Origin: an uncultured bacterium | GTDB lineage: Bacteria > Patescibacteriota > Gracilibacteria > Absconditabacterales > Absconditicoccaceae | Length of the DNA: 64,000 bases | NCBI GenBank assembly: GCA_903904875.1 | Contig: CAIVEC010000001.1 | Coordinates: 10,147-74,146 of the forward strand | Direction: 5' to 3' | In this document: one piece after another, positions 1,883 to 60,880 of the stretch | How the letters are laid out: every line of letters begins with the position of its first letter | Numbering within the stretch: position 1 is the first letter of the stretch | Translations under genes and position numbers: made by a program | Notes under the pieces: generated by a model | Seen by the model: the letters and a program-made list of their open reading frames with translations, nothing else | What the model was told of the DNA's origin: nothing | Databases searched by the model: none

Positions 1883-2044
1883 ATGAAAAACTAAAAATGA
1901 AAAACGAATGAATTGTATACCTAAAGACTATCGTAATCTACAATAGTTTATAATAGAGCAAAAACAACATTATTCATTATTCATCGTTCATTATTCATTA
2001 TTCATCGTTCATTATTCATTATTCATCGTTCATTATTCATTATC
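1883..2044. repeat. intergenic hairpin element copy 1 (A/T-word arms, conserved core); right arm contains about 3.5 x 21-bp tandem repeat (1969-2041)
   Basis: Left arm aatgaaaaactaaaaatgaaaaacgaatgaa. Core ttgtatacctaaagactatcgtaatctacaatagtttataata. Right arm (ttcattattcattattcatcg)n is complementary to the left-arm words. Confidence 0.7.
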
Positions 2045-12411: not shown

Positions 12412-14319
12412 TTACATACGTTCAAGAAATTTCATTCAGACCAGATTCATTCACTTTTGTAGTATTTCATGGACTTTTTTCAACAACATTATTCTCGCTA
12501 TCTTCGTTTGTTTTTCTGATTTGAGAATAATCACATTGGCGTAATAGCTGTTAAGCAATTTGGCGGTGTCTAATAAGTATCTACAGAGAAGATACGGAGC
12601 TAACTGGTCTTTTGCTTGCAGAAGCATGTCATTGAATTCAGCAAGTTTTTTTATGAGAGCGAATTCTTCCGGTTGGGTAAGTAATGAAGCAGTTGTAGTT
12701 TCATCCAAATTTTTTATAGCTCATGCATTGTCGATGATGCTTTGTACCCTTGCTCCCGCGTAAAGGATATATGCTCATGTTTCGCCTTGCATGTCTAATG
12801 CTTCGTCGATATCAAACACCAAGTCCTTGTCGATATCAGATCTCATGAGGAAGAATCTGAGCGATCCGATGGCAATGGTCTCTGCAACCTCATCCAGCCG
12901 GGTATCGTCTTTTTCCGGATTTCTTTCTTTGGATTCTCGATACGCTTTACCATGAAGCATAGTAAGCATTTCGTCCAAGGTGACGGTCCGTCATTTCCTG
13001 CTGGAAAACGGGAGTCTTTTTTCCGCCAGTTCTTCTGTGGTAAGTTTGTATCATAATTTAGTTAAGGTCTGTGGAGTAAGATAAACAACACCGTAGCCAA
13101 GCGGAAGATAATGTTTATGCTTCGCTGTATAATCTAATAAGGTGAATGTAGATTTTACAATCGTCTGTGCAGGGATTTGTCTGTTGTCGATAACGGTAAT
13201 TGCGGTGTCGTAATTTCAGAAATCATGCTTAGTCACTTTTGCATCTGGTTGTGAATTGGTGGTATACATAGTTTTACCTCTTGGATCTTCTTCGAAAATA
13301 TCGTAGCCGAAATCTTTGGAGATATAGCCAAGTTTCCAGAGTGCGAAAGCGATATCTTTTGCGATGTATGTAGCAACGCCATCGGACTTGATGAGAATCT
13401 GATATTGTTTTTCTTCTTTGGCGTATTCAGGCAGCGATGAGAGATCAAGCACTCGACATCATTTTGCTTCGCCGTCATCAACGAATTTTACGAATCATTT
13501 CTCTCTGAGCAGATCTATCGCTTCAGCGAAAAATTTGAGATGTAAGACATCCGTCTCTCGTGCGATTGCATCGAAAAACGCGTTCATCCTCCAGCACGTT
13601 CTGATCTGATCTAGCGCGCATCTTCTGGTATAGTTGAAATGAAGCTGGTTGAGATTTTCGTCTTTCCCTTCTTCTATTTTGAATAAGGTCTCTGAGAGTA
13701 TTTTTTTGAATCCTGGATCTTCGTCCTGTTTCCTCATCTCTTCGTAAATATTTCCGCAATAATGATCAAATTTTTTGTCCGTATCTAATGGATAGTCATA
13801 GAATAAATGTCCTACTATATTATAACCGACATTGACGCCGCTATCATCACCGTAGTTGAATGCGTGAACGGTATATCATAGCTCTTCATAAATCCTTCTC
13901 ATACTATCCCCTATACAGACATTTCTTGCCTGACCGATATGGAGGGGTTTATTCGGGTTGGCGTTCATATATTCTATCATCACCCTCGTCTTCGACGATC
14001 CTTTAATTCAGAATTCAGAATTCAAAATTCAGAATTCAAAAAAATCATTGATAAATGTTTTTTTGTCGATGTGTGCGTTGAGATATCCGCTGAGATGTTC
14101 GAACGAAGAAAAATAATCAGATTGTAATTTTTTTGTCAATTCTTCAGCAATCTGCTGAGGAGATTTTTTGAGGAGTTTAGAAAGTCTGAAACACGGAAAA
14201 GCAAAATCTCCCGGAATGTTTTCCGGCGGAATCTCTATCAATGCTAAAATCTCCGCCAATGGCAGATCGATATGTTTAGCTAATAATTCTGCAAAATGCT
14301 GTGTATAGAGAGTAAGCAT
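12412..14319 (-). CDS. argS: arginine--tRNA ligase
   Basis: EYMNANPNKPLHIGQARN (HIGH-type region), anticodon-binding domain, ends ...FLERM as ArgRS typically does. All five ORF-track fragments are in one frame. 1908 nt. Confidence 0.9.
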
Positions 14320-14334
14320 ATATGATGATAAATG

Positions 14335-14760
14335 CTAAAGTTCTAATTTTGGTTTCTGTCTAAATTGTTTGATCTTGCTAACAAGTTTTTTTTCTATGAT
14401 GCGCGTTTCGCGCTGTTTCTTTGGTATCTTGGTAGGGATTCTTTTTTTCGGTTCCGGAAGTATTTGTATCAATAGTTGTTTGAAATGATGGATCACTTTC
14501 TCTTTGTTCGCCACCTGCAGACGCTCTTCCTGACACGTCATAATAAGGATGCCTTCTTCGTGATGAACCATATGTCCGGCTAAATCTATGAGCCTTTGTT
14601 TTTGGGCAGGAGTGAGATAATCGGAATCGTGGATATTGAAATAGAGTTCCGCCTTGGTTTCTTTCTTGTTCACCTTCTGGCCGCCATGCCCTTTGCTTTT
14701 GGAGAAATGGAAATGGACCTCTTTCTGTAAAATAGCATTTATGATATCTTGATTATTCAT
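14335..14760 (-). CDS. arfB: alternative ribosome-rescue factor ArfB (GGQ peptidyl-tRNA hydrolase)
   Basis: 141 aa, SKSKGHGGQKVNKKET GGQ motif plus basic C-terminal tail. No TGA. Confidence 0.8.
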   Translation of the reverse strand: MNNQDIINAILQKEVHFHFSKSKGHGGQKVNKKETKAELYFNIHDSDYLTPAQKQRLIDLAGHMVHHEEGILIMTCQEERLQVANKEKVIHHFKQLLIQILPEPKKRIPTKIPKKQRETRIIEKKLVSKIKQFRQKPKLEL

Positions 14761-14900
14761 AATGTTTTGTGCTAAGTGTTAAATGTTAAGTGCTAAATGC
14801 TAAGTGTAGGAATATGTACCATTATCGACTATTGTAATTTACAATAGTTCATTAAAAGATAAATCTTTCACTTAAAACTTAAAACTTAGAATTTAAAATG
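14761..14900. repeat. intergenic hairpin element copy 2
   Basis: Arms gctaagtgttaaatgttaagtgctaaatgctaagtg / cacttaaaacttaaaacttag are complementary. Core atgtaccattatcgactattgtaatttacaatagttcattaaaag has a perfect inner hairpin ctattgta-attt-tacaatag. Confidence 0.75.
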
Positions 14901-14906
14901 GTTTTT

Positions 14907-15122
14907 TTATTGTTTCTTGTGTCTTTCTATTCTGCCTGTTTCATATCTATCGAGTTCCTGAGAGATCTGGTTTTTGGCTAGCGTTTCTCATTTTTTACCG
15001 GATTTTTTTGCACCGCTCACTGCACGTGAAAGATCTTCGACACCTAACCAAAGCGTGTTTCCTATCGTATCTGCTAAATTCGTTTTGCGTTTTTCTTCGA
15101 ATTTTTTGAGATCGGTAGTCAT
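14907..15122 (-). CDS. small hypothetical protein (71 aa)
   Basis: MTTDLKKFEEKRKTNLADTIG...; ATG to TAA, 216 nt, one TGA. No family recognised. Confidence 0.35.
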
Positions 15123-15261
15123 GCGTAATAATAGGGATAAAAACAAGAATATCTAAACTCTAAGGTATGAAAAATGATCAGAAAATCAATGATATTTTTA
15201 GTTGATATTTTTGGTTCCATTTGTATAATAAACACATAATTTTACCCTATTAGCCAATTAC

Positions 15262-16458
15262 ATGGCAAAAACAAAAAATATACTCGCTCGATGAATCATC
15301 GGTATCATTACAATGATTGGATTTACGCTCTGAGCTAAAGTCACTTTCCAACCATTATACTCTGACGTAAGATTCCAACCTTCTGACAAACTCCACGCCG
15401 GGTGCACTAATTCTGCCGACATTTTGTTTTCTCCGCAGGGACAGAAAGTGAGCAAATTTACGCTGGTACTCTATTATAATCCGCAAGATGTGGAAATCCT
15501 TCGTATCTTGCCAAGCACGACGAATGGTATAGCAAGCTCAAAAATCGAGTATGATAAAATCATCCTTGAAGTGCAGAATCCTACATTTGCTTCGTCAACG
15601 GAAACAAAATCGTTTTTTCAACTCTATTTCAAAAGTAATATCATAGGCAAAGAGATATTAACGTTAGGAACAGGTTCTGAAGTCGTTACGGCAAACAAAA
15701 CCTCTCCGCTTGCAGGAACATTTAATCTAACGTTTGAACAGGTGCCGGAATGTGAACCTGATATCGTCCCCCCAAGCATTAATTTAATTTATCCAAAAAA
15801 TACCGACGATAGGATTACCTTGGATCAATATTTTATCTTTGACATCAAGGATATCGGCAAATGAGTGGACAAAAATAGCGTCATCATAAACTTTGATGGA
15901 GACCAGTATTTCTATGGATCGGATAATCTCAAACGAAATGGAAATTATCTGACGTTCTACCCAGATAAATGGATTCCTATCGATACATCTATGGACCTCA
16001 AAATCCTTGTTGCTGACCAACAATCCTATGGATGAGCAAACAAGACGGAGAGCATGTATACCTTCCAAAGCGCTACAGGGATGATGCTCAATAAACAAAT
16101 TACGCCGATGATATTCAGAAGAATGGCGCAGGAAGCAGAGAAAATATCTGCATCAGTAGATGAATGCGGACTTCTATGAGACTTATACAACAAAGCACAA
16201 TTCAGCTATCAAGTGGATCTGAGATCTATCATGCAGAAACTTGGATGTGATGTAAATACCATAGATGCAACCTTGACTGCTCCTAAGGAAGATAAGGTGC
16301 CTGCAATGAATGCTAGCCAACAACAATACAGAAATATCTCTGTCTTTGCTACGCTTGGATGGATACTCTTCTTCATCGCATTTACCTTAAAAATACATTA
16401 TCTTCTTGCATATAGGAAACACAAAAAAATTAATGAAAAATTAAGAATTAAGAATTAA
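15262..16458 (+). CDS. membrane-anchored surface protein, cohesin-like plus Ig-like (Big_5/SbsA-type) domains
   Basis: Checked codon by codon. N-terminal TM, FTLVLYYNPQDVEILRI cohesin-like region, DIVPPSINLIYP...GKGVDKNSVIINFDG Ig-like motif, C-terminal TM. The last codons lie in the arm of element copy 3. Confidence 0.7.
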
Positions 16459-16552
16459 GAATGAATGAACTGTATATCTACAAACTATAGTAATATACAT
16501 TAGTTCATAATATAGCAAAATCCGACATTATTCATTTTTAATTAATTAGTTA
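16430..16552. repeat. intergenic hairpin element copy 3
   Basis: Arm (aattaaga)n-atgaatgaa, core ctgtatatctacaaactatagtaatatacattagttcataatatagcaaaatccgac, arm attattcatttttaattaatt. Confidence 0.7.
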
Positions 16553-16557
16553 AAGTT

Positions 16558-17046
16558 ATGGCATTTGAAATTGAAAGAAAATTTTTGGTAAAAGATATAC
16601 CCATGGATATCGAGCAATTTCCTCATAAGGAAATCATCCAATGATATTTTAATGATCCGACTACCGGCAAAAGTGTCAGAGTCAGAAAAATCTGAGATGA
16701 ATATAAAGTCACCAGAAAAAAATGACATGGACTCGTTAGAGAAGAGATAGAAGTAGCGGTCAGCAAAGAGGAATTTGATCAGTTACGATTCCAAGTAGAA
16801 AATCATTTTCTCGAAAAGACTCGTTATGAAATACCCTATAATGGTATAGCTATAGAGCTCGATGTCTATAAAAATCTTCAAGGACTCAAAACCGCTGAAG
16901 TGGAATTCGGCAGCAAAAGAGATGCGAAAAAATTTATTGTTCCTGAGCGATTCAGTGAAGAAGTAACGAGAATGAGAGAAGCGACCAACGGATATATAGC
17001 CAATCACTGACTTGCTGATGAACTGATTGAATTAATGAAAAATTAA
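16558..17046 (+). CDS. CYTH-domain protein (CyaB/ThTPase-like triphosphate tunnel enzyme)
   Basis: MAFEIERKFLV start. VPE(CGA)FSEEVT fits the family PEWF...EVT. 489 nt, checked codon by codon. Confidence 0.8.
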
Positions 17047-17160
17047 TAATGAAAAATGTATGACTTGTACACTTATAGGCTATCGTAATATACGATAGTT
17101 CATAACAAAAACAAAATCCGACATTATTCATTATTCACTATTCATTATTAATTATATTTA
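17028..17160. repeat. intergenic hairpin element copy 4
   Basis: Core ttgtacacttataggctatcgtaatatacgatagttcataac. The inner hairpin ctatcgta/tacgatag carries a compensatory C-G where copies 2 and 7 have T-A. Confidence 0.75.
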
Positions 17161-17163
17161 AGT

Positions 17164-17967
17164 TTAGAAGTTTCTGAATATTTCCTGTAATTTTTTTCTT
17201 TCTCTTTCCCCTTCCTCTTTTTCTTTGATTTCTTTTTCCAATTTTCTGAGTTCCTCTGAAGTCAAGAATATGAATTTATTGAGTTTGTCTACGACTTGCA
17301 GTTTTTTCTTCTGATCTTCCGTAAAATCCTGTATCTCATCGAATAATAAGCTATCATTTACCATCACTTCCAATGAGGATGTCTCTTCGTTGAAGGTAAA
17401 TCTCAATTCGTTGACGGTCTCTTCTTCTGTTTCCTTGTCTTGTTCGATCTTGGTGATAAAGATTGTAGGATCATCGGTCTCATCAAGCAGGAATTTATAG
17501 GAGATGAATATTTTGTCATTATCTGCTCAGAGGATATCGAATGTCTCTTCACCGCCTACTCATAACGTATCTTTGAGTTCATAGATCTTCTTTGTTGTGA
17601 AAAACAGTTCACCGAATTTCTTCTGTACGTCAGTCTGGAGTTTAGTATCTAATAAATCTTCTACCTGACTTTGTTCCAGTGATGATTGTTGTTGGATATT
17701 CTGTGCTTCTTCTTCAGCAAAATCTTCAATAACATGTTTTTGTCCACGAAGGTGGGCTTCTGGAATATATATGGGTTCCTGTGTTTCAGGTATCTTATTA
17801 AATTGATATTTTTTTTCCAACATATCGCCATATGGAAGATCTTCTTCCTCGGGAGTCGCCTCAGGAATTGTAGAGAATATATCTTCTCACGCAAAAATAT
17901 CATCAGTATATCACTGGTGTCCTTGTTGTTGCGGATTGGTTCATTGGATAGGATCGGTCATACTCAT
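17164..17967 (-). CDS. acidic hypothetical protein with C-terminal coiled coil
   Basis: Two ORF-track fragments share one frame, and 17407-17562 was checked. MSMTDPIQG... 804 nt. Confidence 0.6.
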
Positions 17968-18375
17968 TAGCTTAAAGATTAAAGCTTGAAGCTTAAAGCT
18001 TTTTGCTTTTGGCTTATAGTAATTATATCCAGATTCTGTAATTTTGCAAATTTCCGAAGGGGAAATTTATAAGTCCTTTATCTACGTAAAGAACAAACGC
18101 TCCGTAAAGGACAAACAAATTTTAGATAGTTTTAAAGCGGTAGAAATCCATAATTCACTCTTAGACGTCATTCCGGCAGTAAGTTTTGCAGCCGAAATCC
18201 ATACTAAAATGCTCTTTAGTTTCTATGGTTATGGATTCCCGCTTTCGCGAGAATGACGCTGAAACGAGAGAGATGGATTCCGGATTATATCTTTTTTTAA
18301 GAGAAAATGCTTGTATTTTAGTAGCCATTCTATAATATGTATTCTGTCAATTCTTTATTTTGTTTTTTTGGGTAC

Positions 18376-18726
18376 ATGTCAGAAGACAACACTATTATCA
18401 GCCAGACAAAACTCTTTGTCGGTGGGCTAAATTGGAAATTGAGATGAAAAGATCTCAGAGAAGAATTCTCAAAGTTCGGAGAAGTCGCTTTCGCTAGAGT
18501 GAAGCTCGATCAAGAGACAAACAAGAGCAGAGGGTTCGGTTTCGTAGAATTCGTTAATCCAGAAGATGCTGCTAAAGCGCAGAAAGCAATGGATGGACAG
18601 GAAATCATGTGAAGAGCGGTAAAAGTCGATTTCGCTAAAGAGAATCCTGATAGGATACAGGCGAGAGAAGATGCCATTGCAGGAAAAGCCAAAGAAGAAG
18701 ATCCAAACGAGATACCGGAATTCTAA
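18376..18726 (+). CDS. RRM-domain RNA-binding protein
   Basis: KLFVGGLNWKL (RNP2) and SRGFGFVEF (RNP1). 351 nt. Confidence 0.85.
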
Positions 18727-18748
18727 TCACTATATGATTTCTATAAAA

Positions 18749-18784
18749 GACACGCGACAACCTTTGGTGAGCGTGTTTTTTTTA
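18749..18784 (+). terminator. intrinsic terminator
   Basis: gacacgc...gcgtgt hairpin followed by a run of 9 T. Confidence 0.7.
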
Positions 18785-18965
18785 TTTTCGCTTGAAAACA
18801 CGGTGAATACTAATAGTCTGAAATAGACTGCAGGGCCCGTACGTAAGGGGAGGAATATTACTTCCTATCTATCTCATGGGAGCCACAAAGTTGAGTCTCG
18901 TATTCAACGGAGCTACCCACTTCTAAGTCTTTAGGAGAACTACTCGCCTTCTACGACCATGTGGT

Positions 18966-19438
18966 CACTTAAAACGCTTAATCGCTCAAACGACAAAACG
19001 AAAAAACGATGTGTTTTAGCTTATTAATGTATTAAACATGCAATTTGAAGAACTAAATATGTGGCAAGATTCTCAGGAAGTATATTTCAAATTAGCACAA
19101 ATTTTTAACAAAGAAATATTTAAAGATTATTTTTTTAGAGATCAAATATTAAGAGCTGCTTTAAGTATTTCCAATAATATAGCTGAATGATTTGAAAGAG
19201 AAACAAATAACGAATTAAGAAGGTTTCTTTATATAGCTAAATGAAGCTGTGGGGAAGTTAGAAGTATGCTTAATTTGGCTTATAAAAACGATTATATAGA
19301 CAAAAAGCTATTTGAAGAATTAGCAGATAAAGCGAAACACATAAGCATTATGATATATAAGTACATTGAAAAACTAAAATAATTAAGAAACGTCGTTTAA
19401 TCGTTTAATCGTTTCAACGTTTAGTCGTTTAGTCGAAT
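18966..19438. mobile_element. IVS-like element: long imperfect inverted arms enclosing a four-helix-bundle ORF
   Basis: Left arm cttaaaacgcttaatcgctcaaacgacaaaacgaaaaaacg and right arm cgtcgtttaatcgtttaatcgtttcaacgtttagtcgtttagtcg are built from complementary aaacga/tcgttt words. Confidence 0.5.
19038..19382 (+). CDS. four-helix-bundle protein (23S rRNA intervening-sequence protein family)
   Basis: ...ISNNIAE(G)FERETNNELRRFLYIAK(G)SCGEVRSML, the family signature. 345 nt. Confidence 0.85.
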
Positions 19439-19441
19439 TTC

Positions 19442-19753
19442 ATGAAAAAAATAAATGAGTCATTCATATGCATCAACTGTTGAAAAGAGGTTTCCCAGGC
19501 TGCCAGAACCTGTAGGAATCATTGTCCGTATTGTTTTGTTTCCTTGCATGTAGACGAGAAAATACCGTGAGACAGGAAAACTACCTGCGGCGGAAAGATG
19601 TATCCCACCGCGTATGAAATCAGGAACTGACAATTGAAGATATGTTTCCAATGCAAGGAATGCGGAAAAATTCATCGGAATAAAAGAGCAGATGACGACC
19701 ACGTTGAAAAGTTAGATGAGTATATCAAACAATATAAGGAAATACTCTATTAA
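19442..19753 (+). CDS. RNHCP-domain zinc-ribbon protein
   Basis: FICINCGKEVSQAARTCRNHCPYCFVSLHVD...CFQCKECG. 312 nt. Confidence 0.8.
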
Positions 19754-19905
19754 CTAAATAATTTTGAATGCTAAATGCTAAATGTTGAATGATGGTTTTT
19801 GTCTTATTATGAACTATAGCTACACCATGTGATGGTAATAATAGTCCATGATAATACATATCCTACATTCAAAATTCAACATTCAAAATTTAAAATTATA
19901 TTTAA
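19754..19905. repeat. intergenic hairpin element copy 5 (core in opposite orientation, longer)
   Basis: Arms ttgaatgctaaatgctaaatgttgaatg / cattcaaaattcaacattcaaaat are complementary. Core contains ttattatgaactatagc. Confidence 0.65.
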
Positions 19906-20901
19906 TTAGGCGGCTTGTGCCGTTGGTGCTTTCTTCGACAATATTTCTTCAAAATATCCTGCTATGGTAGGATTTTCTTTTTTTACGGCGATTATGATCT
20001 GATCGATATTATCTCATTTCTTATTCTTTTTTCCTCGCTCCAGGATACTTTCTTCACTGGCTTTTCAACCTAGCACTTTTTCATAATCCTTGATATATTC
20101 TTTCTTGAACGTATCATCCATGGTTTTCCAGGAAAGGTTTTCCTGATCTGCTTGGTCTTTTGCTTCGGTTTCTTCTTTGTTCTTTTTCTTTATTTCGTCG
20201 ATGGAGTTCTGTTTATTATTTCAGGATGCCGGAGGATTATCGGATGGCGTTGATGGCGGAGTGGAATCTGGTTTTTTGTCAGATGATTGGTCTGGTTTTT
20301 CTTCTGATTTCTTTTCCTTCGTTCCTCAGGATACATCTTCGTTTTTTGGAATTTCTGCTTTAGGTGTTTCGCTTTCTGCGGGAGTTGAAGATCATCATGT
20401 CGCACCAAGGAATCCGAAACTTTTTTCTTGGATCTGATTGACCCAAGTATCTCATCCTGTTTCATGCGTATCATAGGTTTGGAAATCGAATCCTTTCTTT
20501 TTGCTGAATATCCTCGTAGCGTTCCGCATTCATTTGAACATCTTGCCTGGCGTATATAAGAGCTTTTTGAATGGCTGTCGGATTCACTGATTAAGTGCGC
20601 TTGCCATACCGGCACCTGCTATCATTACTGGTCTTCGTGTCACTGCAGAAGCTAAATTCATTGAACCTTTAAGAAATCTCTGATACCATTTCCCTTGTAC
20701 TTTGGAAAAATTGAGAAAATTATGAACTAAAGCATTTCCTGTTTGTTTGGTGACTTCTGCAATATTTTTGAGCCCGCTTATTCATTGTCTAGGAATATTT
20801 GCTCAAGCATTTAAAATCTCTCCTCATCGTCTGACAGGGGTTGCTATCGTATTTCCTACTCTCAATCACGCAGTACTGACTCATTGTTTAATTTTTCCCA
20901 T
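19906..20901 (-). CDS. hypothetical protein (331 aa) with low-complexity Ser/Pro/Lys linker
   Basis: Every codon checked: no TAA or TAG, about 15 TGA, 996 nt. The 141-aa ORF-track entry 20190..20615 is a different frame. Confidence 0.6.
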
Positions 20902-22095: not shown

Positions 22096-22200
22096 ATTTT
22101 GTGATAAAGTAACTTTCCTCACCCCCTTTATCCCCCTCTCCTTCAGAGAAGGGGATGATTACTACTCCCTCTCTGAAGGAGAGGGTTGGGGTGAGGACAT
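22096..22200. repeat. REP-like imperfect palindrome of about 95 bp (second copy at 60690-60800)
   Basis: cctcaccccctttatccccctctccttcagaga...ctctctgaaggagagggttggggtgagg. About 85% identical to the 60.7-kb copy by eye. Confidence 0.7.
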
Positions 22201-22371: not shown

Positions 22372-23916
22372 ATGAAAAAAAACTTTACTAAATTTTTGTT
22401 CATCGCAGTAGCGGTGATCGGCATGTTTTTTGCCAAATCAAGTCAGGGACAAACAGCTTATGTAAGCTTGGATACACTTAGCAATGGAGATACTATCCAT
22501 TATTGTACTTCACAGTATACCCAGGTAGTCCTTTACAAACCAACGGCAGCATTAACAAATCCTCAATGGGATATTCAACAGCCTTCATATCATAATGTTT
22601 TTGCTGATTCTGTTATCTTAAACACCACAAACGCTGGGACAATCTGGTTTTCGTCTGATCAAACATCAACGATAGAATTAAATTTTTTTCTTGTAGGAGT
22701 ACCAAATTCTCCAGGATTAGCTGATATCAATGCCTGTGGAGATATCTACAGTTACCCGCTTGATGCATTGAATCATAATACCGGGTCTTTTTATACCTGG
22801 TCAACGGGAGCAACAACACAAAACATTACTGCTACAAGTCCCGGGACGTACTGGGTACATATTGATGATGGGTGCGGTACGATATCAGATACTGCTATCA
22901 TTACTGCAGATCATACCAATGACGCTAATCTTGGTCCTGATCAAACGATTTGTCTGTATGATACTATCACGTTGACCAGCGGTAATACCAACATCACTAC
23001 CTATGCATGGTCAACCAGTAGTTCTGCTTCGACTATTACTGTTTCGCAAGCAGGGAGCTATAGTATCACAACAACTGACAATTCTGGTTGTGTAAGTACT
23101 GATACAATGAATCTCATTATTATCGTTCCCTATGATCAGCAGCAAATCTGCATGGTAGAATATGACACTCTTGCGTCCGAGAATCGTATCAATTGGGATC
23201 AGCATCTTGGCGAAAGAATTGACAGTATTAATATCGAAAAACAGATATCACTTACTGAATGGGAAAGTATCGGAGTTGTACCCAATACAATAACTAATTT
23301 TTTGGATACCAATAGTACTCCGCAAACCAATAGCGATTCTTACCGGATTCTTGTAATAGATAGTTGTGGCAACAAATCATCAGCTTCTGATGCTCATAAG
23401 ACCATTACGCTTTTGACGAGCTACACTCCAGGAACTGGGGTTATGGGATTTAATTGGTCTCACTATCTAGTCAATGGCATACTCGTTGCACCGACCTATA
23501 CTATCTATGGTATAGATACCAGTGGAAGTACTCATGTGGTTGGCACGGTTCCGGGAAGCCAGAATTATTATAACTGGACCACCCCCGATTTGAGCTATAT
23601 CAAATTCTTTGTCGGATTTACGCTTAGTTGCGGAGCCAAAACAGATTATCTGGTACGCTCAAACTATACAGGCAACCCTGCAGGAATTGACGAATATTCT
23701 TTGACTGACCAAATTCATGTATATCCGACACTGACCAACGGTCCGATAACTATCATGACCGATCTCTTTATCAAGGATATCAAACTTTATAATACTTTGG
23801 GACAAGTACTCTTGGTCACCAAGGAGAAAAAAATTGATATTCCTTACCATGGACTTTACTTTTTACACATCAACACCGATAAAGGTGTGATGGTAACTAA
23901 AATTATGATCCAATAA
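22372..23916 (+). CDS. secreted repeat protein with Bacteroidota-type T9SS C-terminal sorting domain
   Basis: Signal peptide MKKNFTKFLFIAVAVIGMFFAKSSQG. 3 x Y.WSTGATT..ITV..GTY.V...D..GC..DT repeats. Two Fn3-like ...SCGNKS modules. CTD VYPTLTNGPITI...LYNTLGQVL...GLYFLHINTDKGVMVTKIMIQ. 514 codons with no TGA. Confidence 0.85.
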   Translation: MKKNFTKFLFIAVAVIGMFFAKSSQGQTAYVSLDTLSNGDTIHYCTSQYTQVVLYKPTAALTNPQWDIQQPSYHNVFADSVILNTTNAGTIWFSSDQTSTIELNFFLVGVPNSPGLADINACGDIYSYPLDALNHNTGSFYTWSTGATTQNITATSPGTYWVHIDDGCGTISDTAIITADHTNDANLGPDQTICLYDTITLTSGNTNITTYAWSTSSSASTITVSQAGSYSITTTDNSGCVSTDTMNLIIIVPYDQQQICMVEYDTLASENRINWDQHLGERIDSINIEKQISLTEWESIGVVPNTITNFLDTNSTPQTNSDSYRILVIDSCGNKSSASDAHKTITLLTSYTPGTGVMGFNWSHYLVNGILVAPTYTIYGIDTSGSTHVVGTVPGSQNYYNWTTPDLSYIKFFVGFTLSCGAKTDYLVRSNYTGNPAGIDEYSLTDQIHVYPTLTNGPITIMTDLFIKDIKLYNTLGQVLLVTKEKKIDIPYHGLYFLHINTDKGVMVTKIMIQ

Positions 23917-25703: not shown

Positions 25704-25847
25704 TTTATTGAATGTAGAATGTAAAATGCAGAATTCAGAATGTATAAATTGAACTACTATAATTGTATTCCATATAGCTAGAAAAACAAAAAATCTAGCT
25801 TTTGAGGGCTAGATTATCTTGCTATTTTATGTTTTTATTATGTAATA

Positions 25848-26651
25848 TTAATTTACCCGTAACTCTCCTGGACTACCTCATTGTCCGACCTTCCAAACTC
25901 CTCCTGTTAATCATTCAATTACTAAATTATCACCAGAAACAATGATTCTTCGTGGAGTTGTTCATCAGGTAAGATAGAATCCTGAGTTGCTTTGTACTGC
26001 ACCACTAACATCTAACGCATATTCTGGTGAAGTTATTCATCCGATACCGACATTTAATCAAACATTGTAAATATTTGTACTATTGGTGATCCAGGAAGCT
26101 CAATCCCAAAATGGCGTTGCTCACAATCATATTCATGCTTGTAAAAATCCTGTAGCTCCTGTATCTCCTGTCGCTCATGTTGCTCCTGTATCTCCTGTCG
26201 CTCATGTTGTTCACATTGCTCATGTCGCTCACGTTACTCATATTGGTCATATCGCTCACGTTACTCATATTGGTCATATAGCTCATGTTGGTCCACTCAG
26301 TGCAAATCCACTAATGAAGTTGTATACTGCACCACTTGTAGATGCTATTAATTTTCCACTTGCATTAGTTCCAAGCACAGCAAAGTTTAGTAAACTGTCC
26401 ATCGTTACATCGCCTTTGAACCATGCGGTTCCGCTAGCACCGTTTAAAAAAACTCCTGTAGCAGAAGTAGAATTTCCGTCTAGAGTAAGAATAAGATTTC
26501 CTACAAGTATCGTCGCATTCTTTTGTGCAGTTTTAATTTCAAACGCTTTTACCATAAAGAGTATGCAGGACATTCAGAGGAAAAACAGCGTAGCTCATTT
26601 GATGAAGCTCATGCCTTTTCTTGATTGTAAGTTTTTGCTTGTAAAGCTCAT
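25848..26651 (-). CDS. collagen-like (G-X-Y) surface fibre protein
   Basis: Same N-terminal cassette as 23994..25703. About 16 uninterrupted GXY triplets (GAIGPIGVTGAIGPIGVTGATGAMGTTGATGDTG...) at about 26100-26285, about 10 of the Gly encoded by TGA. 804 nt. Confidence 0.8.
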
Positions 26652-28904: not shown

Positions 28905-29035
28905 TGTAATGAAAAATGAAAAGTGAATAATGAAAAATGAAAGATTTGTTTTATTATGAACTATTGTAGATTATTATAGTCGATAGTAACATATTCCAAC
29001 ATTATTCATTATTCATTATTAATTATTAATTAGTT
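28905..29035. repeat. intergenic hairpin element copy 6 (core reversed)
   Basis: Arms atgaaaaatgaaaagtgaataatgaaaaatgaaag / cattattcattattcattattaatta. Core ttattatgaactattgtagattattatagtcgatagtaacatattcc. Confidence 0.75.
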
Positions 29036-29177
29036 ATTATGGTTTAAGTCTATTTTTTCAATACAAAATCCCTCTCGTGGTTTACTGACCCAATATCTAC
29101 ACTATCTATTGACATTTATACTAAAATATCTATCTTAATAGGGAACTTTATTTAGCTTATGGCAATGATGTATGGTA

Positions 29178-30120: not shown

Positions 30121-32688
30121 ATGGATCTCAAAGAGATAAGCAAAAAACGACAGAAAAAACGGAAAGAAACAGATCTCTACAAAGTCAGAGAAGATATTTC
30201 TAAACCAAAATTTTATATTCTGGCTATGTTCCCCTATCCGTCCGGTGCATGATTACATGTAGGACATCCGAAGGGATATATTGCTACCGACACGTTGGCG
30301 AGAAAAAAAATGCTTGAAGGATATAATGTACTTCATCCGATGGGATTCGATACCTTCTGATTATGAACGGAAAATTATGCGATAGAGCATAAGATGAAAC
30401 CACAGGATGTAGCGAAAAAAAATATTGCAACATATATGAAGCAACTTGAAATGTTTGGTACTACCTATGATCGAAGTAGAGCCGTCAATACGGCAGATCC
30501 GAAATATTTCAAGCGGACGCAACGAATATTCTTACAGATGTACAATCATTATTATGATGAAAAGTTGAAAAAAGCGATGCCGATCACTGATCCAAGTAAA
30601 CAAGAACGTTTAGCATATGTAGATTACAAGCCGATAAACCGATGTCCATCATGTATGACCGGATTAGCGAATGAAGATCTCGATGACGGAAAATGCGAAA
30701 GATGCGGAAGTGTCGTTGAACAGAGACCGATGAAGCAACGAGTATTGAGGATTACGAAATATGCCGAAAGATTGTTGGAATGATTGGATGTCTTGAAACG
30801 GGAAGAGTCCATGAAAGATTTGGAAAGGAACTGGATCGGGAAATCAGAATGAACAGATTTCGATATGCAGGTCGATGGAACGGATGAAAAATTCAGCGTG
30901 TATACGACAAGGATAGATACGGTTTTCTGAATGTCATTCGTTGCTATCGCACCAGAGCACCCATTAGTGGATAAGATAACCACGAAAGAATATAAAAAAG
31001 AAGTTGAAAAATACAAAGACGCAGCGAAGCACAAAACCCAGTTGGAAAGGACAGAATTACAGAAAGAGAAGACAGGAGTCTTCTGTGGAGCCTACGCGAT
31101 CAATCCGTTCAATGGCGAAAAAGTGAAAATATTCGTCGCCGATTATGTCTTGGCAAATTACGGAACTGGAGTCGTGATGGCCGTGCCCGCGCATGATGAA
31201 AGGGATTTCGAATTCTATAAAAATTACAATAAGAACTGAATAGATATTATATGTGTAAATCAGAGTGAATATGGTGTTGAACCTAGAAATTGAGTTTCTT
31301 TTAATATTGAATACGAATCATTTAAAAAATATTGTAATCAATTAGATAAGTTACCACCTTTCTTATCTGCCAATTGAGATAATCAAAAATTAGTAAATTC
31401 ATGAAAGTTTGATTGACTAACCTTATCAGAAGCAAGAGAAGAAATGAACAAGCGATTAAAAAAAGAATGAATCTGAGGTAGTAAAGTGAATTATAAGATG
31501 CAGGATCGGGTATTCAGCAGACAGAGATATCGAGGCGAACCATTTCCGATTGTACGGACCGAAGATGGAGAAATTGTCGCACTTGAGGAAAAAGATTTAC
31601 CGGTGGAATTACCTGATGTAGATAATTATCAACCGACGGGAACAGAAGAATGACCGCTCGCAAACATCACCGATTGGGTCAATGTTACGTTGCCCGATGG
31701 TAGGAAAGCAAAACGTGAAACGAATACGATGCCAGGACGGGCAGGCAGTTCGCGATACCGGCTCAGATATATGGATGTGAATAATGAGAAGGCATTAGTA
31801 GGAAAAGATAAGGAAAAATACCGAGGGAATGTCGACGTCTATGTCGGAGGTGCGGAGCACGTTACCAGACATATGATCTACGCGAGATTCTGGCAGAAAT
31901 TTTTGTACGATATCGGTGTGGTTACAAAACAGGAACCGTTCGAAGAATATCATTATGTAGGGCTCATCATGGGAGAAGACGGCAGGAAAATGTCCAAAAG
32001 ACGAAAAAATGTTGTCAGTCCAGATGATATTATTAACGAGTTCTGAACTGATGCCTTGAGGACCTATGAGATGTTCATGGGACCGTTCGATCAGCCGATT
32101 GCATGGAGTACGAACGGACTGAAATGAATCAAAAAATTCTTAGATAAAGTTGTTGCGTTGAAAGACAAAATAGGGAGCAAGGAGCAAGGAGCAGGGAGCA
32201 AAGAACCTGAAACCTGAAACATGGAACCTGCAACCCATATAATAGTAAACCAGACAATAAAAAAAGTTTGAGAAGATATCGATGTATTCAGATTCAATAC
32301 CGGGGTTTCACAGCTCATGATCCTCGTCAATCACCTGACCGAATGTAAAACCATCAATAAGAAAACATTCGAAGATTTGGTTGTCTTGATATCGCCTTTC
32401 GCTCCGCATTTAGCTGAGGAATTACGGGAGTGATTAGGTAATGAATACTCCATATTCACGAAAGCGAAATGGCCGAGTTATGATAAAAAATATCTCGTAG
32501 CTGATACCGTAACCATCGCTGTACAAGTGAACGGCAAGGTGAGAGGAACGATTTCTATCGATAAGAACGCTGAAGAAAGTGAGGTCATGAAGCTCGCGAA
32601 ATCAGATGAAAAAATAAAAACACGGATTACGGGCGAACCGAAAAAAGTGATCTACGTCAAAGGAAAAATTTTAAATGTTGTAATATAG
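30121..32688 (+). CDS. leuS: leucine--tRNA ligase
   Basis: KK(CGA)QKK(CGG)K = [12 protein letters not shown](TGA)LHVGHP, D(CGG)VFSRQRY(CGA)GEP = [20 protein letters not shown]. 2568 nt, TAG stop. Confidence 0.95.
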
Positions 32689-51551: not shown

Positions 51552-51652
51552 TATAATTTTAAGTTTTAAGTGCTAAGTTTTAAATAAAATTTTTCCTATA
51601 TTTAACACTTAACATTTAGCACTTAGCATTGAATTTATTTAATTAATTTTTC
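51552..51652. repeat. core-less long hairpin of the same arm type
   Basis: ttttaagttttaagtgctaagttttaaat ... atttaacacttaacatttagcacttagcattgaa. Overlaps the last codons of rlmN. Confidence 0.6.
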
Positions 51653-54589: not shown

Positions 54590-54716
54590 AATGAATAATG
54601 AAAGATGAAAAATGAATAATGTCGGATTTTATCGTGTATAAACTATTGTAGTTTACAATAGCTGATAAAAAACAATACAATCATTATTCATTATTAATTA
54701 TTAATTTTTCATTAAA
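54590..54716. repeat. intergenic hairpin element copy 7 (core reversed)
   Basis: Arms aatgaataatgaaagatgaaaaatgaataatg / cattattcattattaattattaat. Core tcggattttatcgtgtataaactattgtagtttacaatagctgat. Confidence 0.75.
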
Positions 54717-60689: not shown

Positions 60690-60800
60690 TCGGAAGGTTT
60701 GAAGAGTTTTTCCTCACCCCCTTTCTCCCCCTCTCCTTCAGAGAGGGGTATGATTACTGCTCCTTCTCTGAAGGAGAAGGTTGGGATGAGGAAAGTTACT
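60690..60800. repeat. REP-like imperfect palindrome, second copy
   Basis: cctcaccccctttctccccctctccttcagagagg...ctctgaaggagaaggttgggatgagg. See 22096-22200. Confidence 0.7.
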
Positions 60801-60880
60801 CAATACCTTGTAAACCAGCTTTGAAAAAATATAAAACAACCAATTCTGAATTCTGCATTTTACATTCTGCATTCAAAAAA

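What the first reader, a model, noticed from the sequence alone, without database searches (positions are those of the whole stretch)
14761..14900. Dense family of intergenic hairpin elements: hypervariable but self-complementary word-repeat arms around a conserved ~55-nt core
There are at least 7 cored copies (1883-2044, 14761-14900, 16430-16552, 17028-17160, 19754-19905, 28905-29035, 54590-54716), one core-less hairpin (51552-51652) and an ORF-carrying relative (18966-19438). That is about one per 8 kb. Each has a left arm of short periodic words (aatgaa, ctaagtg, aattaaga, ttgaatg and others) and a right arm that is its reverse complement. Arm sequences differ between copies, but complementarity is kept. 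The core consensus, gTAtac..aCTAT(y)GTAAt.TAC(r)ATAGTTcATAA....AAAatccgac, occurs in both orientations. It contains an inner hairpin with a compensatory pair (ctatCgta/tacGatag in copy 4 versus ctatTgta/tacAatag in copies 2 and 7). Copies occur between convergent, divergent and tandem genes, and sometimes supply the last codons of a CDS (..KLRIKN*, ..ELMKN*). Candidate roles are REP/PATE-like MITEs mobilised by a Y1 transposase, RNase III processing or insulator stems, or a small-RNA family. I do not recognise them as a described family.
Basis: seen in the sequence. Interest (0 to 1): 0.7.

Follow-up and report, generated by a model that had tools for sequence, protein, structure and literature searches.

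The report
Foldback mini-elements with heptamer-repeat arms
A bacterium that reads TGA as glycine carries, in about one intergenic gap in seven, a roughly 130-base foldback DNA element (conserved palindromic centre, arms of 7-base tandem repeats) that behaves like a small mobile element related to gene-carrying "intervening sequence" elements, not like a conserved structured RNA.

Summary
The seven cored copies, the core-less hairpin and the ORF-carrying relative are all real. A covariance model finds exactly those seven copies in the window. The same architecture occurs in about 100 copies from 18 species-level MAGs labelled Absconditabacterales, SR1 or "Peribacteria".

The arms are tandem heptamer arrays, phase-locked to a quasi-palindromic core: TGTAGGATTTGT…TATRRA-CTATYGTA-nnn-TACRATAG-TYYATA…ACAAATCCTACA.

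The RNA reading fails its own test. There is no covariation: 73.8% of cells pair, against 76.0% in shuffles. The cited "compensatory pair" is C-G in only 2 of 100 copies. G·U pairs are not enriched on the mRNA-sense strand.

Copies behave as dispersed DNA:
- near-identical copies, arms included, sit in unrelated flanks;
- orthologous sites differ in presence or absence;
- arms change in steps of 7 nt;
- copies occur at all junction types in proportion to their number.

The ORF-carrying relative encodes a PF05635 protein (23S rRNA intervening-sequence protein). PF05635 genes in other phyla are also flanked by inverted 7-9-nt tandem arrays: 30 of 57 loci on both sides, and none of 40 checked lies in rRNA.

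Best reading: ORF-less miniature relatives of IVS-type foldback elements. Their means of mobilisation is unknown. RNase III cleavage when transcribed is plausible but untested.

The parts
1883..2044 (.). Cored copy 1. Left heptamer array 1885-1908, core 1902-1972, right array 1968-2043 (10.9 units, far longer than the left). The right end overlaps the stop of the gene 2040-2603 (-).
14761..14900 (.). Cored copy 2, the finding's own coordinates. Left array 14769-14807 (GTGTTAA-type), core 14802-14873, right array 14870-14898 (ACTTAAA). It fills the 146-nt gap between two tandem minus-strand genes.
16428..16552 (.). Cored copy 3. Left array 16439-16462 (AATTAAG), core 16459-16530, short right arm. 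The upstream CDS ends inside the left arm at 16458.
17028..17160 (.). Cored copy 4. Left arm 17033-17066, core 17054-17126, right array 17122-17155 (CATTATT). The CYTH-like CDS ends inside the left arm at 17046. Convergent junction.
19754..19905 (.). Cored copy 5, a variant whose inner loop is expanded by a small extra hairpin. Arrays 19767-19784 and 19867-19897, core 19787-19870. Best-folding copy (z = -6.8).
28905..29040. Cored copy 6. Arrays 28908-28942 (AATGAAA) and 29000-29040 (CATTATT), core 28935-29004. Divergent junction. An orthologous copy appears to be present in L007 (read by eye from the listing); the element is absent from the matching gap in L050.
54590..54716 (.). Cored copy 7. 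Arrays 54590-54621 and 54681-54714, core 54617-54686. Divergent junction.
51552..51652 (.). Core-less hairpin. Inverted heptamer arrays 51557-51583 and 51600-51630 with about 16 nt between them. Convergent junction.
18966..19438 (+). ORF-carrying relative. Left 8-mer array 18988-19009 (AAACGACA), a PF05635 (23S_rRNA_IVP, four-helix-bundle) ORF at 19038-19382 with two TGA=Gly codons, and an inverted right array 19393-19435 (TCGTTTAA). It is inserted directly 3' of a conserved structured-RNA-like region.
17969..18001 (-). Lone heptamer array (AGCTTAA, 4.7 units) abutting the start codon of the gene 17164-17967 (-). A half-element or free array.
25710..25744 (-). Lone heptamer array (GAATGTA, 5 units) 6 nt upstream of the start of the gene 23994-25703 (-). 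The same unit is found at L007 positions that align to this window region.
60843..60874 (+). Lone heptamer array (ATTCTGC, 4.6 units) 6 nt upstream of the start codon at 60881.
14005..14038 (-). Heptamer array (AATTCAG, 4.9 units) translated inside the ArgRS gene, in the linker between the N-terminal domain and the catalytic core. The orthologous position in L002 carries a different unit (AGCTTGA).
32174..32235 (+). Two adjacent heptamer arrays (GGAGCAA x4, AACCTGA x4.6) inside the 855-aa ORF 30121-32688.

Best explanation
These are ORF-less miniature members of a family of foldback, IVS-type selfish DNA elements found in a set of related, TGA-recoding CPR MAGs (labelled Absconditabacterales, SR1 or 'Peribacteria').

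Anatomy. Each copy is a 120-160-bp quasi-palindrome: a strongly conserved central palindrome (TATRRA-CTATYGTA-nnn-TACRATAG-TYYATA), two inverted inner boxes (TGTAGGATTTGT / ACAAATCCTACA), and two inverted microsatellite arms of about 4-5 heptamers ([NNNNATG]n on the left, [CATNNNN]n on the right).

Shown here.
- The unit, arms included, is copied to new intergenic sites within a genome and is gained or lost between species.
- The arms then evolve like microsatellites: changes in steps of 7 nt, one-sided expansions beyond 30 units, and homogenisation of units within an arm.
- The central palindrome stays intact.
- Larger relatives carry a PF05635 four-helix-bundle gene between the same kind of inverted 7-9-nt arrays. 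This arrangement is widespread in other phyla and lies outside rRNA.

Inferred.
- The central palindrome and boxes are the part recognised in trans by whatever moves or maintains the element.
- Palindromy is a property of the DNA, as two degenerate half-sites or a foldback/cruciform. It is not a selected RNA fold.
- When a copy is co-transcribed with its neighbours, the imperfect A-U-rich stem is a likely RNase III substrate, as in 23S rRNA intervening sequences. Copies would then act incidentally as cistron punctuation.
- The mobilising enzyme is unknown. The PF05635 protein is the only candidate partner seen.
For: Family and architecture.
- The motif scan of genome contigs returned 96 stretches, of which 80 come from this group of MAGs (18 species-level assemblies) and share the same layout.
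- The CM recovers exactly 7 copies in the window.
- Heptads are phase-locked to the core, with G/C peaks at 31, 38 and 45 nt from the centre.

Mobility.
- L017/L031 share about 150 nt, including both arms, with 1 difference in the 67-nt centre and unrelated flanks. L039/L062 differ at 3 positions, L022/L064 at 6.
- The nearest neighbour lies in the same genome for 20 copies, against 5.8 expected.
- Orthologous sites are filled or empty: copy 3 is absent in L002 and L022; copy 2 is absent in L002 and L027 but a cored copy lies in the corresponding gap of L022; copy 6 is absent in L050; no cored copy appears at the copy-4 site in L059, and L097 has two canonical terminators there.
- 113 of the 114 copies that could be placed are intergenic. 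Junction types are 62 tandem, 21 convergent and 14 divergent, against 345/80/86 junctions available.

Microsatellite arms.
- Period 7 dominates: 212 arrays against 19 or fewer for any other period.
- There is a 14-nt indel in an arm among strains.
- One arm exceeds 30 units while its partner has 5.
- 94 of 212 arrays lie away from any core.

Not an RNA fold.
- The formal pair count shows no covariation.
- The polarity of G·T versus A·C mismatches is inconsistent between positions.
- On the sense strand of tandem contexts there are 38 G·U and 73 A·C.
- A neighbouring structured RNA shows 10 of 45 compensatory pairs with only six sequences, so the method can detect covariation.

Link to IVS elements.
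- The ORF is PF05635, E 2.5e-29.
- In L066 the PF05635 element has an 8-mer array, then the core palindrome CTATAGTAATGTACTATAG, then the ORF, then an inverted array.
- The same insertion site holds a PF05635 element in the window and a partial heptamer-armed copy (truncated core) in L005.
- Of 57 metagenomic PF05635 loci, 42 have a 7-9-nt array within 130 nt upstream, 36 downstream and 30 on both sides. Units are reverse-complementary in 20 of those 30. Proximal array density is 5.46 per kb against 0.5 distal. The own-flank inverted score is 20.2 against 12.9 for cross pairs.
- None of 40 such loci lies in rRNA.
- The Coxiella IVS has a variable number of tandem heptamers upstream of its PF05635 ORF, a 28-bp terminal stem and RNase III excision (PMC4990558).
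Against: - No transposase, recombinase or RAYT gene was found in the window, so mobility has no mechanism.
- No target-site duplication could be defined. Ends look like TAATG...CATTA or TAA...TAA, but this is ambiguous.
- No strain-level insertion polymorphism was seen; the four strains compared differ only by an arm indel.
- Strong position-specific conservation of the central palindrome, also between orthologous copies whose spacers have diverged, is what a host function would produce. For a purely selfish element it needs rapid turnover or conversion between copies.
- Copies were collected with the core motif, so its conservation is partly ascertainment.
- Outside this group of MAGs the PF05635 loci lack the core. 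Only one PF05635 element (L066) carries it, so the parent-offspring link rests on few cases.
Confidence: 0.5

Rival explanations
1. Host-recruited RNA punctuation. The copies are transcribed with their neighbours, and the long A-U stem is cut by RNase III or blocks exonucleases or terminates transcription. This separates and stabilises cistrons in a genome with very short spacers. The element is kept because of this function.
For: - Copies abut genes. The stop codon lies inside the arm or less than 10 nt away in about half of the cases, and the start codon lies less than 10 nt from an arm end in about a third.
- Six of the eight window hairpins fold with z <= -3 against shuffles.
- At the convergent copy-4 site, a related genome without the element has two canonical terminators instead.
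- Convergent junctions are slightly over-represented: 21 against about 15 expected.
- The IVS precedent for RNase III cleavage of such stems (PMC4990558).
- The central palindrome is conserved in orthologous copies.
Against: - No compensatory changes in 100 copies.
- A copy's own arms are no more complementary than other copies' arms.
- Arm lengths are unequal, and one-sided expansions are tolerated.
- No orientation preference relative to tandem genes (30 vs 22), and more A·C than G·U on the sense strand.
- 14 copies sit between divergent genes, where no read-through transcript is expected.
- No terminator-like G+C stem with a T-run inside the elements.
- Related species do without the element at the same junctions.
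Confidence: 0.2
2. DNA-binding site array. The central 31-bp palindrome is the site of a dimeric host DNA-binding protein, for example a nucleoid-associated or chromosome-organising factor. The heptamer arrays are flexible, easily unwound flanks or secondary binding sites. The copies serve chromosome structure rather than their own spread.
For: - The two half-sites degenerate independently (Y at position 5, R/R at positions 11 and 12), which fits protein recognition of DNA half-sites rather than base pairing.
- The 8+8 centre is invariant across 18 genomes while neighbouring positions vary.
- Density is roughly even, about one per 9 kb in the window.
Against: - Whole elements, arms included, are copied to new places and are present or absent between species. 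Known nucleoid-site palindromes are not carried on repeat elements of this kind (own knowledge).
- The restriction to intergenic DNA suggests insertion tolerance rather than spacing.
- No candidate protein was identified.
- The core has a real polarity (leave-one-out log-odds 6.2 vs about 3.3 in the null), so it is not a purely symmetric site.
Confidence: 0.12
3. Two independent phenomena. Heptamer arrays arise everywhere in these genomes by slippage, and inverted pairs of them form hairpins on their own. The core is a separate, very small mobile palindrome, in the manner of cyanobacterial small dispersed repeats, that prefers to insert into such hairpin tips. PF05635 genes insert there too.
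For: - 94 of 212 heptamer arrays lie away from any core, some inside genes.
- Core-less hairpins exist: window 51552-51652, and L003, which keeps the boxes but lacks the centre.
- The same site holds different cargo in different genomes.
- A genome with arrays but no core in 20 kb exists (L097).
Against: - Near-identical copies share arms and core as one unit (L017/L031).
- Heptads are in fixed phase with the core.
- Most array pairs contain an intact core: 118 arrays lie next to cores.
- No isolated core without boxes or arms was found by the CM in the window.
Confidence: 0.13
4. A family of small regulatory RNAs or cis-regulatory RNA motifs whose conserved inner hairpin is the functional part.
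For: - Conserved hairpin-shaped core in many species.
- Good folding energies for most copies.
Against: - No covariation. The observed pairing (73.8%) is below every one of 500 shuffles.
- The cited compensatory pair is C-G in 2 of 100 copies.
- Both strands score alike with the CM.
- No orientation bias.
- No Rfam family.
- No consistent promoter or terminator signals.
Confidence: 0.05

Closest known systems
23S rRNA intervening sequences (IVS) carrying a PF05635 / S23p ORF (Coxiella, Leptospira, Salmonella)
   Same: - Terminal inverted repeats form a long stem around a loop that may hold a PF05635 four-helix-bundle ORF.
- The Coxiella IVS has a variable number of tandem heptamers next to the ORF and is regarded as a selfish element (PMC4990558).
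- The window element 18966-19438 has this layout and encodes PF05635.
   Different: - The window elements are not in rRNA; they sit between protein genes or after a small structured RNA.
- Seven of nine have no ORF but carry a conserved palindromic core instead.
- The arms are made entirely of tandem 7-8-mers.
- RNase III cleavage is not shown here.
Foldback (FB) transposons of eukaryotes (Drosophila FB; Tm1 of root-knot nematodes, PMC3169594)
   Same: - Long inverted arms built from short tandem sub-repeats.
- Arm length varies between copies and between the two arms.
- The central part is sometimes absent and sometimes carries an ORF.
- Copies are dispersed.
   Different: - FB elements are eukaryotic, kilobase-sized and linked to known transposase superfamilies.
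- Here the elements are 120-160 bp, bacterial, have a conserved palindromic centre and have no known transposase.
- The resemblance is architectural, from my own knowledge of FB elements. Membership is not claimed.
Bacterial MITE-like repeats processed as RNA (Neisseria Correia/NEMIS, pneumococcal RUP/BOX, enterobacterial ERIC)
   Same: - Size of 100-160 bp, inverted ends, intergenic location and high copy number (about one per 8-10 kb).
- Co-transcribed with neighbouring genes.
- Correia hairpins are RNase III substrates (own knowledge; general background in PMC3184786).
   Different: - No sequence similarity.
- The ends here are microsatellite arrays, not fixed TIRs.
- No TA duplication could be shown.
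- The conserved part is central, not terminal.
Long simple-sequence heptamer repeats of bacteria (Mrazek 2007 as cited in PMC4679880 and PMC4692102; TAACTGA repeats of Beggiatoaceae, Cyanobacteria and Bacteroidetes; cyanobacterial STRR)
   Same: - Tandem heptamers, 2-6 or more units, mostly intergenic and often ending a few nucleotides before a start codon.
- Indels in 7-nt steps between strains.
- Occasional arrays inside ORFs. All of this is seen here.
   Different: - Those reports describe direct arrays of one unit. They do not describe inverted pairs around a conserved core, or a link to PF05635 genes.
- Here the units are many (106 canonical heptamers).
REP/REPIN elements mobilised by RAYT (Y1) transposases
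   Same: Palindromic, intergenic, highly repeated and non-autonomous.
   Different: - REPs are 20-40-bp G+C-rich hairpins with a GTAG/CGTC head (PMC3733652).
- These elements are A+T-rich, 4-5 times longer, and have tandem-repeat arms.
- No RAYT or IS200 gene was seen.

Membership tests
Structured non-coding RNA family | Base pairs maintained by compensatory changes (covariation) | tested here: not met
   - 100 copies and 28 pairs give 73.8% paired against a shuffled mean of 76.0% (500 of 500 shuffles at least as high), and a covariation score of 0.100 against 0.126.
- A neighbouring RNA-like region shows 10 of 45 compensatory pairs with 6 sequences, as a positive control.
Structured non-coding RNA family | Defined transcribed strand (G·U tolerated, A·C avoided; orientation tied to genes) | tested here: not met
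   - On the sense strand of tandem contexts there are 38 G·U and 73 A·C.
- Orientation is 30 co-directional against 22 anti.
- The CM scores both strands alike.
Structured non-coding RNA family | Match to a curated RNA family | tested here: not met
   The Rfam gathering scan of the window gave only a tRNA. An E<=1 scan of 14700-17250 gave nothing.
Bacterial MITE | Short, non-coding, with terminal inverted repeats | tested here: met
   The elements are 120-160 bp with inverted boxes and inverted arrays.
Bacterial MITE | Dispersed copies of recent common origin in unrelated flanks; presence/absence at orthologous sites | tested here: met
   L017/L031, L039/L062 and L022/L064; filled and empty orthologous sites.
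Bacterial MITE | Target-site duplication | tested here: inconclusive
   Ends read TAATG...CATTA or TAA...TAA, which cannot be told apart from the TIR. No empty site at high identity was available.
Bacterial MITE | Cognate autonomous element with a transposase sharing the ends | tested here: not met
   No transposase among the 8 scanned window ORFs or in the Pfam hits recorded for genes of the 9-32 kb region. The only ORF-carrying relatives encode PF05635. The whole genome was not available.
IVS-type element (23S rRNA intervening sequence) | Terminal inverted repeats forming a stem around the insert | tested here: met
   Stems of the PF05635 element fold with z -2.5 to -4.6 in four species.
IVS-type element (23S rRNA intervening sequence) | PF05635 ORF in the loop | tested here: inconclusive
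   Met for 18966-19438 (E 2.5e-29), L066 and L014. Not met for the seven cored copies, which have no ORF.
IVS-type element (23S rRNA intervening sequence) | Located in 23S rRNA helix 25 or 45 | tested here: not met
   All window copies are between protein genes. None of 40 PF05635 loci from metagenomes lies in rRNA.
IVS-type element (23S rRNA intervening sequence) | Excised from the transcript by RNase III | not testable with these tools
   This needs RNA-end mapping. It is shown for Coxiella only (PMC4990558).
Foldback (FB) transposon architecture | Inverted arms composed of tandem sub-repeats, variable and unequal arm length, optional central ORF | tested here: met
   TRF period 7 in both arms. 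Unit numbers differ by 2 or more in 61 of 114 copies. One-sided expansion exceeds 30 units. Core-less and ORF-carrying versions exist.
Foldback (FB) transposon architecture | Homology to FB/MULE transposases or FB sequences | not tested
   No coding capacity in the cored copies. The analogy is by architecture only.
REP/REPIN-RAYT | 20-40-bp G+C-rich palindrome with a GTAG/CGTC head, and a RAYT gene in the genome | tested here: not met
   The elements have 21-30% G+C and are 120-160 bp. No such head is visible in the sequences read. No RAYT among the window ORFs checked; the whole genome was not searched.
Intrinsic terminator | G+C-rich stem followed by a T-run | tested here: not met
   None of the 7 terminator-like sites in 14000-20500 lies in an element. 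14 copies sit at divergent junctions.
Heptamer simple-sequence repeats (LSSR) | Tandem heptamers longer than chance, with 7-nt step variation | tested here: met
   212 arrays of 3 or more units at period 7, against 19 or fewer for any other period, in 618 kb. A 14-nt indel occurs among strains.

The most novel reading that the evidence does not exclude
PF05635 'intervening-sequence' four-helix-bundle proteins are described as homopentameric rings (Lin 2006, as cited in PMC4990558). They may be the trans-acting partners of 7-9-nt tandem arrays.

Together the two would define a widespread and so far unrecognised class of bacterial foldback elements. The classical 23S rRNA IVSs would be only the rRNA-resident subset. 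The cored hairpins of this group of MAGs would be the ORF-less miniature derivatives.

The typical array length of about 4-5 units (median 4.6 next to cores, 4.35 next to PF05635 genes) would then reflect one unit per subunit of the ring.

This reading would also offer a cause for the long-unexplained excess of heptamer repeats in Cyanobacteria, Bacteroidetes and Beggiatoaceae.
Probability: 0.2. Interest if true: 0.8.

Novelty: new variant of a known kind. Interest (0 to 1): 0.6.

Why it matters
- It gives a concrete, countable repeat family for a poorly known lineage (SR1/Absconditabacterales-type CPR bacteria, genetic code 25). The family occupies roughly 13-19% of intergenic junctions and breaks assemblies: one public contig ends 128 nt upstream of the gene that abuts copy 2, inside the element's span.

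- It shows that a convincing-looking hairpin family need not be an RNA. Palindromy at the consensus level, without covariation, points to DNA.

- It ties together three loose ends: heptamer microsatellites of bacteria, the function-less PF05635 / 23S-IVS protein family, and IVS elements. PF05635 genes in several phyla sit between inverted 7-9-nt tandem arrays outside rRNA. If the protein and the arrays work together, an old question (what IVS ORFs do, and why heptamers are over-represented) becomes testable with simple binding and mobility assays.

Tried and rejected
- **Compensatory inner pair.** Counted over 100 copies and rejected.
- **Own-arm against cross-arm complementarity by local alignment.** No difference. 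Unit types are nevertheless associated. I read that as subfamily descent or symmetrisation, not as proof of selection for pairing.
- **Per-copy excess of G·T over A·C.** It looked overdispersed. I discount it because repeated units are not independent.
- **Polarity from the whole element by EM.** The arms dominated and it contradicted the obvious core orientation, so I dropped it.
- **Promoter or terminator role.** Consensus scans show nothing specific to the elements.
- **Phage or plasmid origin.** No core match in viral contigs and no plasmid match.
- **Strain-level insertion polymorphism.** Exact-protein look-ups gave the same spacing but no DNA for the window's own species. In a related species only an arm indel was found.
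- **Target-site duplication.** It could not be defined.
- **Transposase search.** Eight window ORFs were scanned and none is a transposase.
- **Literature.** Searches found no description of this family in SR1, Absconditabacteria or Gracilibacteria. There is only a note that Gracilibacteria rank second among phyla in inverted-repeat density (bioRxiv 10.1101/2024.09.29.615628).
Full report
**Setting**

The window is 35-42% G+C. Long ORFs run through many in-frame TGA codons: up to 54 in one ORF, and 12 in an ArgRS of 635 aa. TGA falls where glycine is expected, for example NIAE-G-FER in the PF05635 protein. The genome therefore uses genetic code 25. All gene calls below use my own code-25 ORF finder and are approximate. 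An Rfam gathering scan of the window gives only one tRNA.

Yes, for the inventory.
- The palindrome ACTATnGTAnnnTACnATAGTT occurs in six copies, against 0.18 hits expected.
This includes the variant at 19787-19870, which was not used for training. Nothing else scores below E=6.5.
- Six of the eight hairpins fold with z <= -3 against dinucleotide shuffles. Copy 1 does not (z = -1.0) and copy 2 is weaker (z = -2.3).
- The arms do supply the last codons of two genes.

The arm 'words' are tandem heptamers, or octamers in the ORF-carrying element. The conserved part extends beyond 55 nt. The whole element is a quasi-palindrome:

[NNNNATG]n - TGTAGGATTTGT - about 6 nt - TATRRA-CTATYGTA-nnn-TACRATAG-TYYATA - about 6 nt - ACAAATCCTACA - [CATNNNN]n

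The heptads are in fixed phase with the centre.

**Distribution**

One scan of the GTDB species genomes with a 24-nt core pattern returned 96 stretches. Eighty come from MAGs labelled Candidatus Absconditabacterales, candidate division SR1 or 'Peribacteria'; the last label is probably a mislabel, which I did not check. These are 18 species-level assemblies, and all copies have the same architecture. The other 16 stretches are chance hits in unrelated bacteria without arms.

With motif and nhmmer searches I collected 100-114 copies in 618 kb. The pattern does not occur in IMG/VR viral contigs, and the element has no plasmid match.

**Is it a structured RNA?**

I tested this in four ways.

1. 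*The 'compensatory pair'.* The two positions are T/A in 31 copies, C/A in 18, T/G in 15 and C/G in only 2 of 100. That is fewer C/G than independence predicts.
2. *Formal pair count.* On an alignment of 100 copies with the full palindromic structure (28 pairs), 73.8% of cells pair, against 76.0% after shuffling partners between copies. All 500 shuffles were at least as high. The covariation score is 0.100 against 0.126.
3. *Polarity of mismatches.* The polarity of G·T versus A·C mismatches is not consistent between positions. When copies between tandem genes are read on the mRNA-sense strand, the central stem has 38 G·U and 73 A·C. Element orientation is 30 co-directional against 22 anti.
4. 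*Arm complementarity.* A copy's left arm is no more complementary to its own right arm than to right arms of other copies (12.7 vs 13.2; interaction test p 0.85).

As a positive control, the conserved non-coding stretch next to the PF05635 element (about 18826-18968) shows 10 compensatory pairs out of 45 with only six sequences.

So the palindromy is a property of the consensus, not something repaired by compensating mutations. One qualification applies. The unit types of the two arms are associated (GTG-type left arms go with CAC/AGT-type right arms; odds ratio 32, p 4e-7). In the window all eight hairpins have matching arm types. This can come from copying whole elements (subfamilies) or from template switching within palindromes. 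It does not require selection on an RNA.

**Does it behave as mobile DNA?**

- Within single genomes there are near-identical copies whose flanks are unrelated. L017/L031 share about 150 nt, including both arms, with 1 difference in the central 67 nt. L039/L062 differ at 3 positions and L022/L064 at 6.
- A copy's nearest relative lies in the same genome 20 times, against 5.8 expected.
- Orthologous junctions in relatives with 70-80% identical genes are filled or empty:
  - copy 3 is missing in L002 and L022;
  - copy 2 is missing in L002 and L027, while a cored copy lies in the corresponding gap of L022;
  - an orthologous copy 6 appears to be present in L007 (read by eye from the listing), and the element is absent from the matching gap in L050;
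  - at the copy-4 site L059 has other DNA, and L097 has two ordinary terminators.
- 113 of the 114 copies that could be placed are intergenic. They occupy tandem, convergent and divergent junctions (62/21/14) roughly in proportion to the junctions available (345/80/86).
- They fill the spacers. The neighbouring stop codon lies inside the arm or within 10 nt in about half of the cases, and a neighbouring start codon lies within 10 nt of the arm end in about a third.

**The arms are microsatellites**

- In these genomes period 7 dominates tandem repeats: 212 arrays of 3 or more units, against 19 or fewer for any other period, with 106 different canonical units.
- Ninety-four of these arrays are not next to a core. 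Some abut start codons (17969-18001, 25710-25744, 60843-60874).
- Some are translated inside genes. The ArgRS linker carries AATTCAG x4.9 in the window and AGCTTGA x4.4 at the same position in L002.
- Between species with 85% identical genes, an orthologous element kept its central palindrome while the spacers diverged. In one case all units of both arms changed together (GTG/CAC vs ATG/CAT). In another, one arm grew to more than 30 units while the other stayed at 5.
- Among four strains of one species the only element difference is a 14-nt (2 x 7) indel in an arm.
- Core-less hairpins and hairpins that keep the boxes but lack the centre also exist.

**The ORF-carrying relative and the wider link**

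The ORF at 19038-19382 is a PF05635 protein (23S rRNA intervening-sequence protein, a four-helix bundle; E 2.5e-29). It sits between inverted octamer arrays, directly 3' of the structured-RNA-like region.

The same site holds the PF05635 element in four other species. It holds a partial heptamer-armed copy with a truncated core in L005, and a G+C-rich hairpin in L027 and L059. In L066 a PF05635 element reads [GATGAAAT]x4 - CTATAGTAATGTACTATAG - ORF - inverted array, so it carries the core palindrome. In L014 the gene adjoins a cored copy.

Outside this clade:
- A Flavobacteriales PF05635 gene lies between TTTAAGG x5 and CCTTTAT-type arrays, between the E2 and E1 genes.
- A Yanofskybacteria gene lies between AAAGTTCAT and AACTTTAT arrays, between the frr and rseP genes.
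- In 57 metagenomic PF05635 loci with both flanks, 42 have a 7-9-nt array within 130 nt upstream, 36 downstream and 30 on both sides. In 20 of those 30 the two units are reverse complements.
- Arrays are 11-fold denser next to the gene than further away (5.46 vs 0.5 per kb).
- Here a locus's own flanks are more complementary than cross pairs (20.2 vs 12.9).
- None of 40 such loci lies in rRNA.
- The exact core palindrome is absent from all these loci.

The literature knows part of this. The Coxiella 23S IVS is called a selfish element. It has a 28-bp terminal stem cut by RNase III, a PF05635 ORF and a variable number of tandem heptamers just upstream of that ORF. An old proposal is that IVS ORFs serve mobility (PMC4990558). 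Heptamer arrays as such are a known but unexplained class (PMC4679880, PMC4692102). PF05635 ORFs occur in CPR rRNA insertions (bioRxiv 10.1101/2024.02.27.582315). Gracilibacteria rank second among phyla for inverted-repeat density (bioRxiv 10.1101/2024.09.29.615628). I found no description of the cored family, or of the general flanking of PF05635 genes by inverted arrays. Absence from the searchable library is not proof of absence.

**Most likely mechanism (confidence about 0.5)**

The cored hairpins are ORF-less miniature members of an IVS-type foldback element family.

Shown:
- dispersal as a unit;
- gain and loss between species;
- microsatellite dynamics of the arms;
- conservation of the central palindrome;
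- the architectural and positional link to PF05635 elements.

Inferred:
- the central palindrome and boxes are what a trans-acting factor recognises on DNA;
- pairing of the arms is a by-product of inverted arrays;
- transcripts through a copy are probably cut by RNase III, as IVS stems are.

Unknown: the enzyme that moves them, the target site, and whether the host now depends on them.

Rivals, with my confidence in each:
- host-recruited RNA punctuation (0.2);
- a DNA-binding-site array for a host protein (0.12);
- two independent phenomena, a tiny palindrome inserting into pre-existing array hairpins (0.13);
- a small-RNA family (0.05).

**Caveats**

- Copies outside the window were collected with the core motif, which inflates its apparent conservation.
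- Copies are related to one another, so the counts are not independent.
- ORF calls are crude.
- MAG labels were not verified.
- The whole genome of the window's organism was not available, so 'no transposase' holds only for the regions examined.

Noticed in passing
whole window (e.g. 39872-42754 with 54 in-frame TGA; 12412-14319 with 12): The genome uses genetic code 25 (TGA = Gly). Table-11 ORF lists fragment nearly every gene.
   Followed up: yes
window 18826-18968 (+): A conserved non-coding stretch of about 143 nt lies downstream of an RRM-domain protein gene. Its consensus structure (closing stem GACUACA...UGUGGUC) has 10 of 45 compensatory pairs in six species, and it has no Rfam match at E<=1. 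It is probably an undescribed structured RNA. Its 3' end is an insertion hot spot: a PF05635 element, a partial heptamer-armed copy or a G+C-rich hairpin, depending on the genome.
   Followed up: partly
window 22114-22197 and 60707-60794; also L010 5728-5812, L027 1566-1646: A second dispersed repeat family: an 84-88-nt G+C-richer hairpin (…CCTCACCCC…CCCTCTCCTTCAGAGAAGG/CCCTCTCTGAAGGAGAGGG…GGGGTGAGG), 86-88% identical between copies in different genomes.
   Followed up: no
window 14005-14038 (ArgRS) and 32174-32235 (ORF 30121-32688); L002 4215-4245: Heptamer arrays are translated inside essential genes. The ArgRS linker carries a different heptamer unit at the same position in a related species, so the array is positionally conserved but variable in sequence.
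   Followed up: partly
window 22372-23916, 33633-35090, 43099-44640, 52769-53413, 54788-56200, 14335-14760: Several long ORFs contain no TGA codon at all, in a genome where TGA=Gly is common. Two of them (22372-23916 and 43099-44640) look like paralogues with signal peptides. The first has a weak Por_Secre_tail (T9SS sorting domain) hit, which is a Bacteroidota-type feature. Others are a SAICAR synthetase/AIR carboxylase fusion, a FabH-like protein and a methyltransferase. These may be recent horizontal acquisitions from code-11 organisms.
   Followed up: partly
window 18150-18260; L005 about 2050-2150; L097 10700-10745: A third repeat type has inverted motifs such as GTCATTCCGGC...GCCGGAATGAC / GGATTCCCGCTTTCGCGAGAATGAC and GTCATTGCGAGGAACGAAGTGACGAAGCAATC. 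It occurs in the long spacer 17968-18336 and at orthologous spacers in relatives.
   Followed up: no
window 23994-25703 and 25848-26651 (-); 39872-42754 (+): Paralogous genes start with the same MSFTSKNLQS... leader and are very TGA-rich (41 and 23 TGA). They contain 21/42/84/126-nt tandem coding repeats. The ORF at 39872-42754 has related 42-nt repeats. The first gene is preceded by a heptamer array.
   Followed up: no
L062 2770-2986; L055 5092-5400; L022 2400-2530: Extreme heptamer arrays occur in relatives: 31 x GTCATTA, more than 30 x ATGAATG (interrupted by an assembly gap) and 18 x GGTCCCT-type units. This shows how far the arms can expand and why assemblies break there.
   Followed up: partly
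L097-L102 versus window 19038-19382: The PF05635 protein is 85-92% identical between species whose surrounding DNA is only 73-76% identical. The gene is either under strong constraint or was recently exchanged.
   Followed up: no
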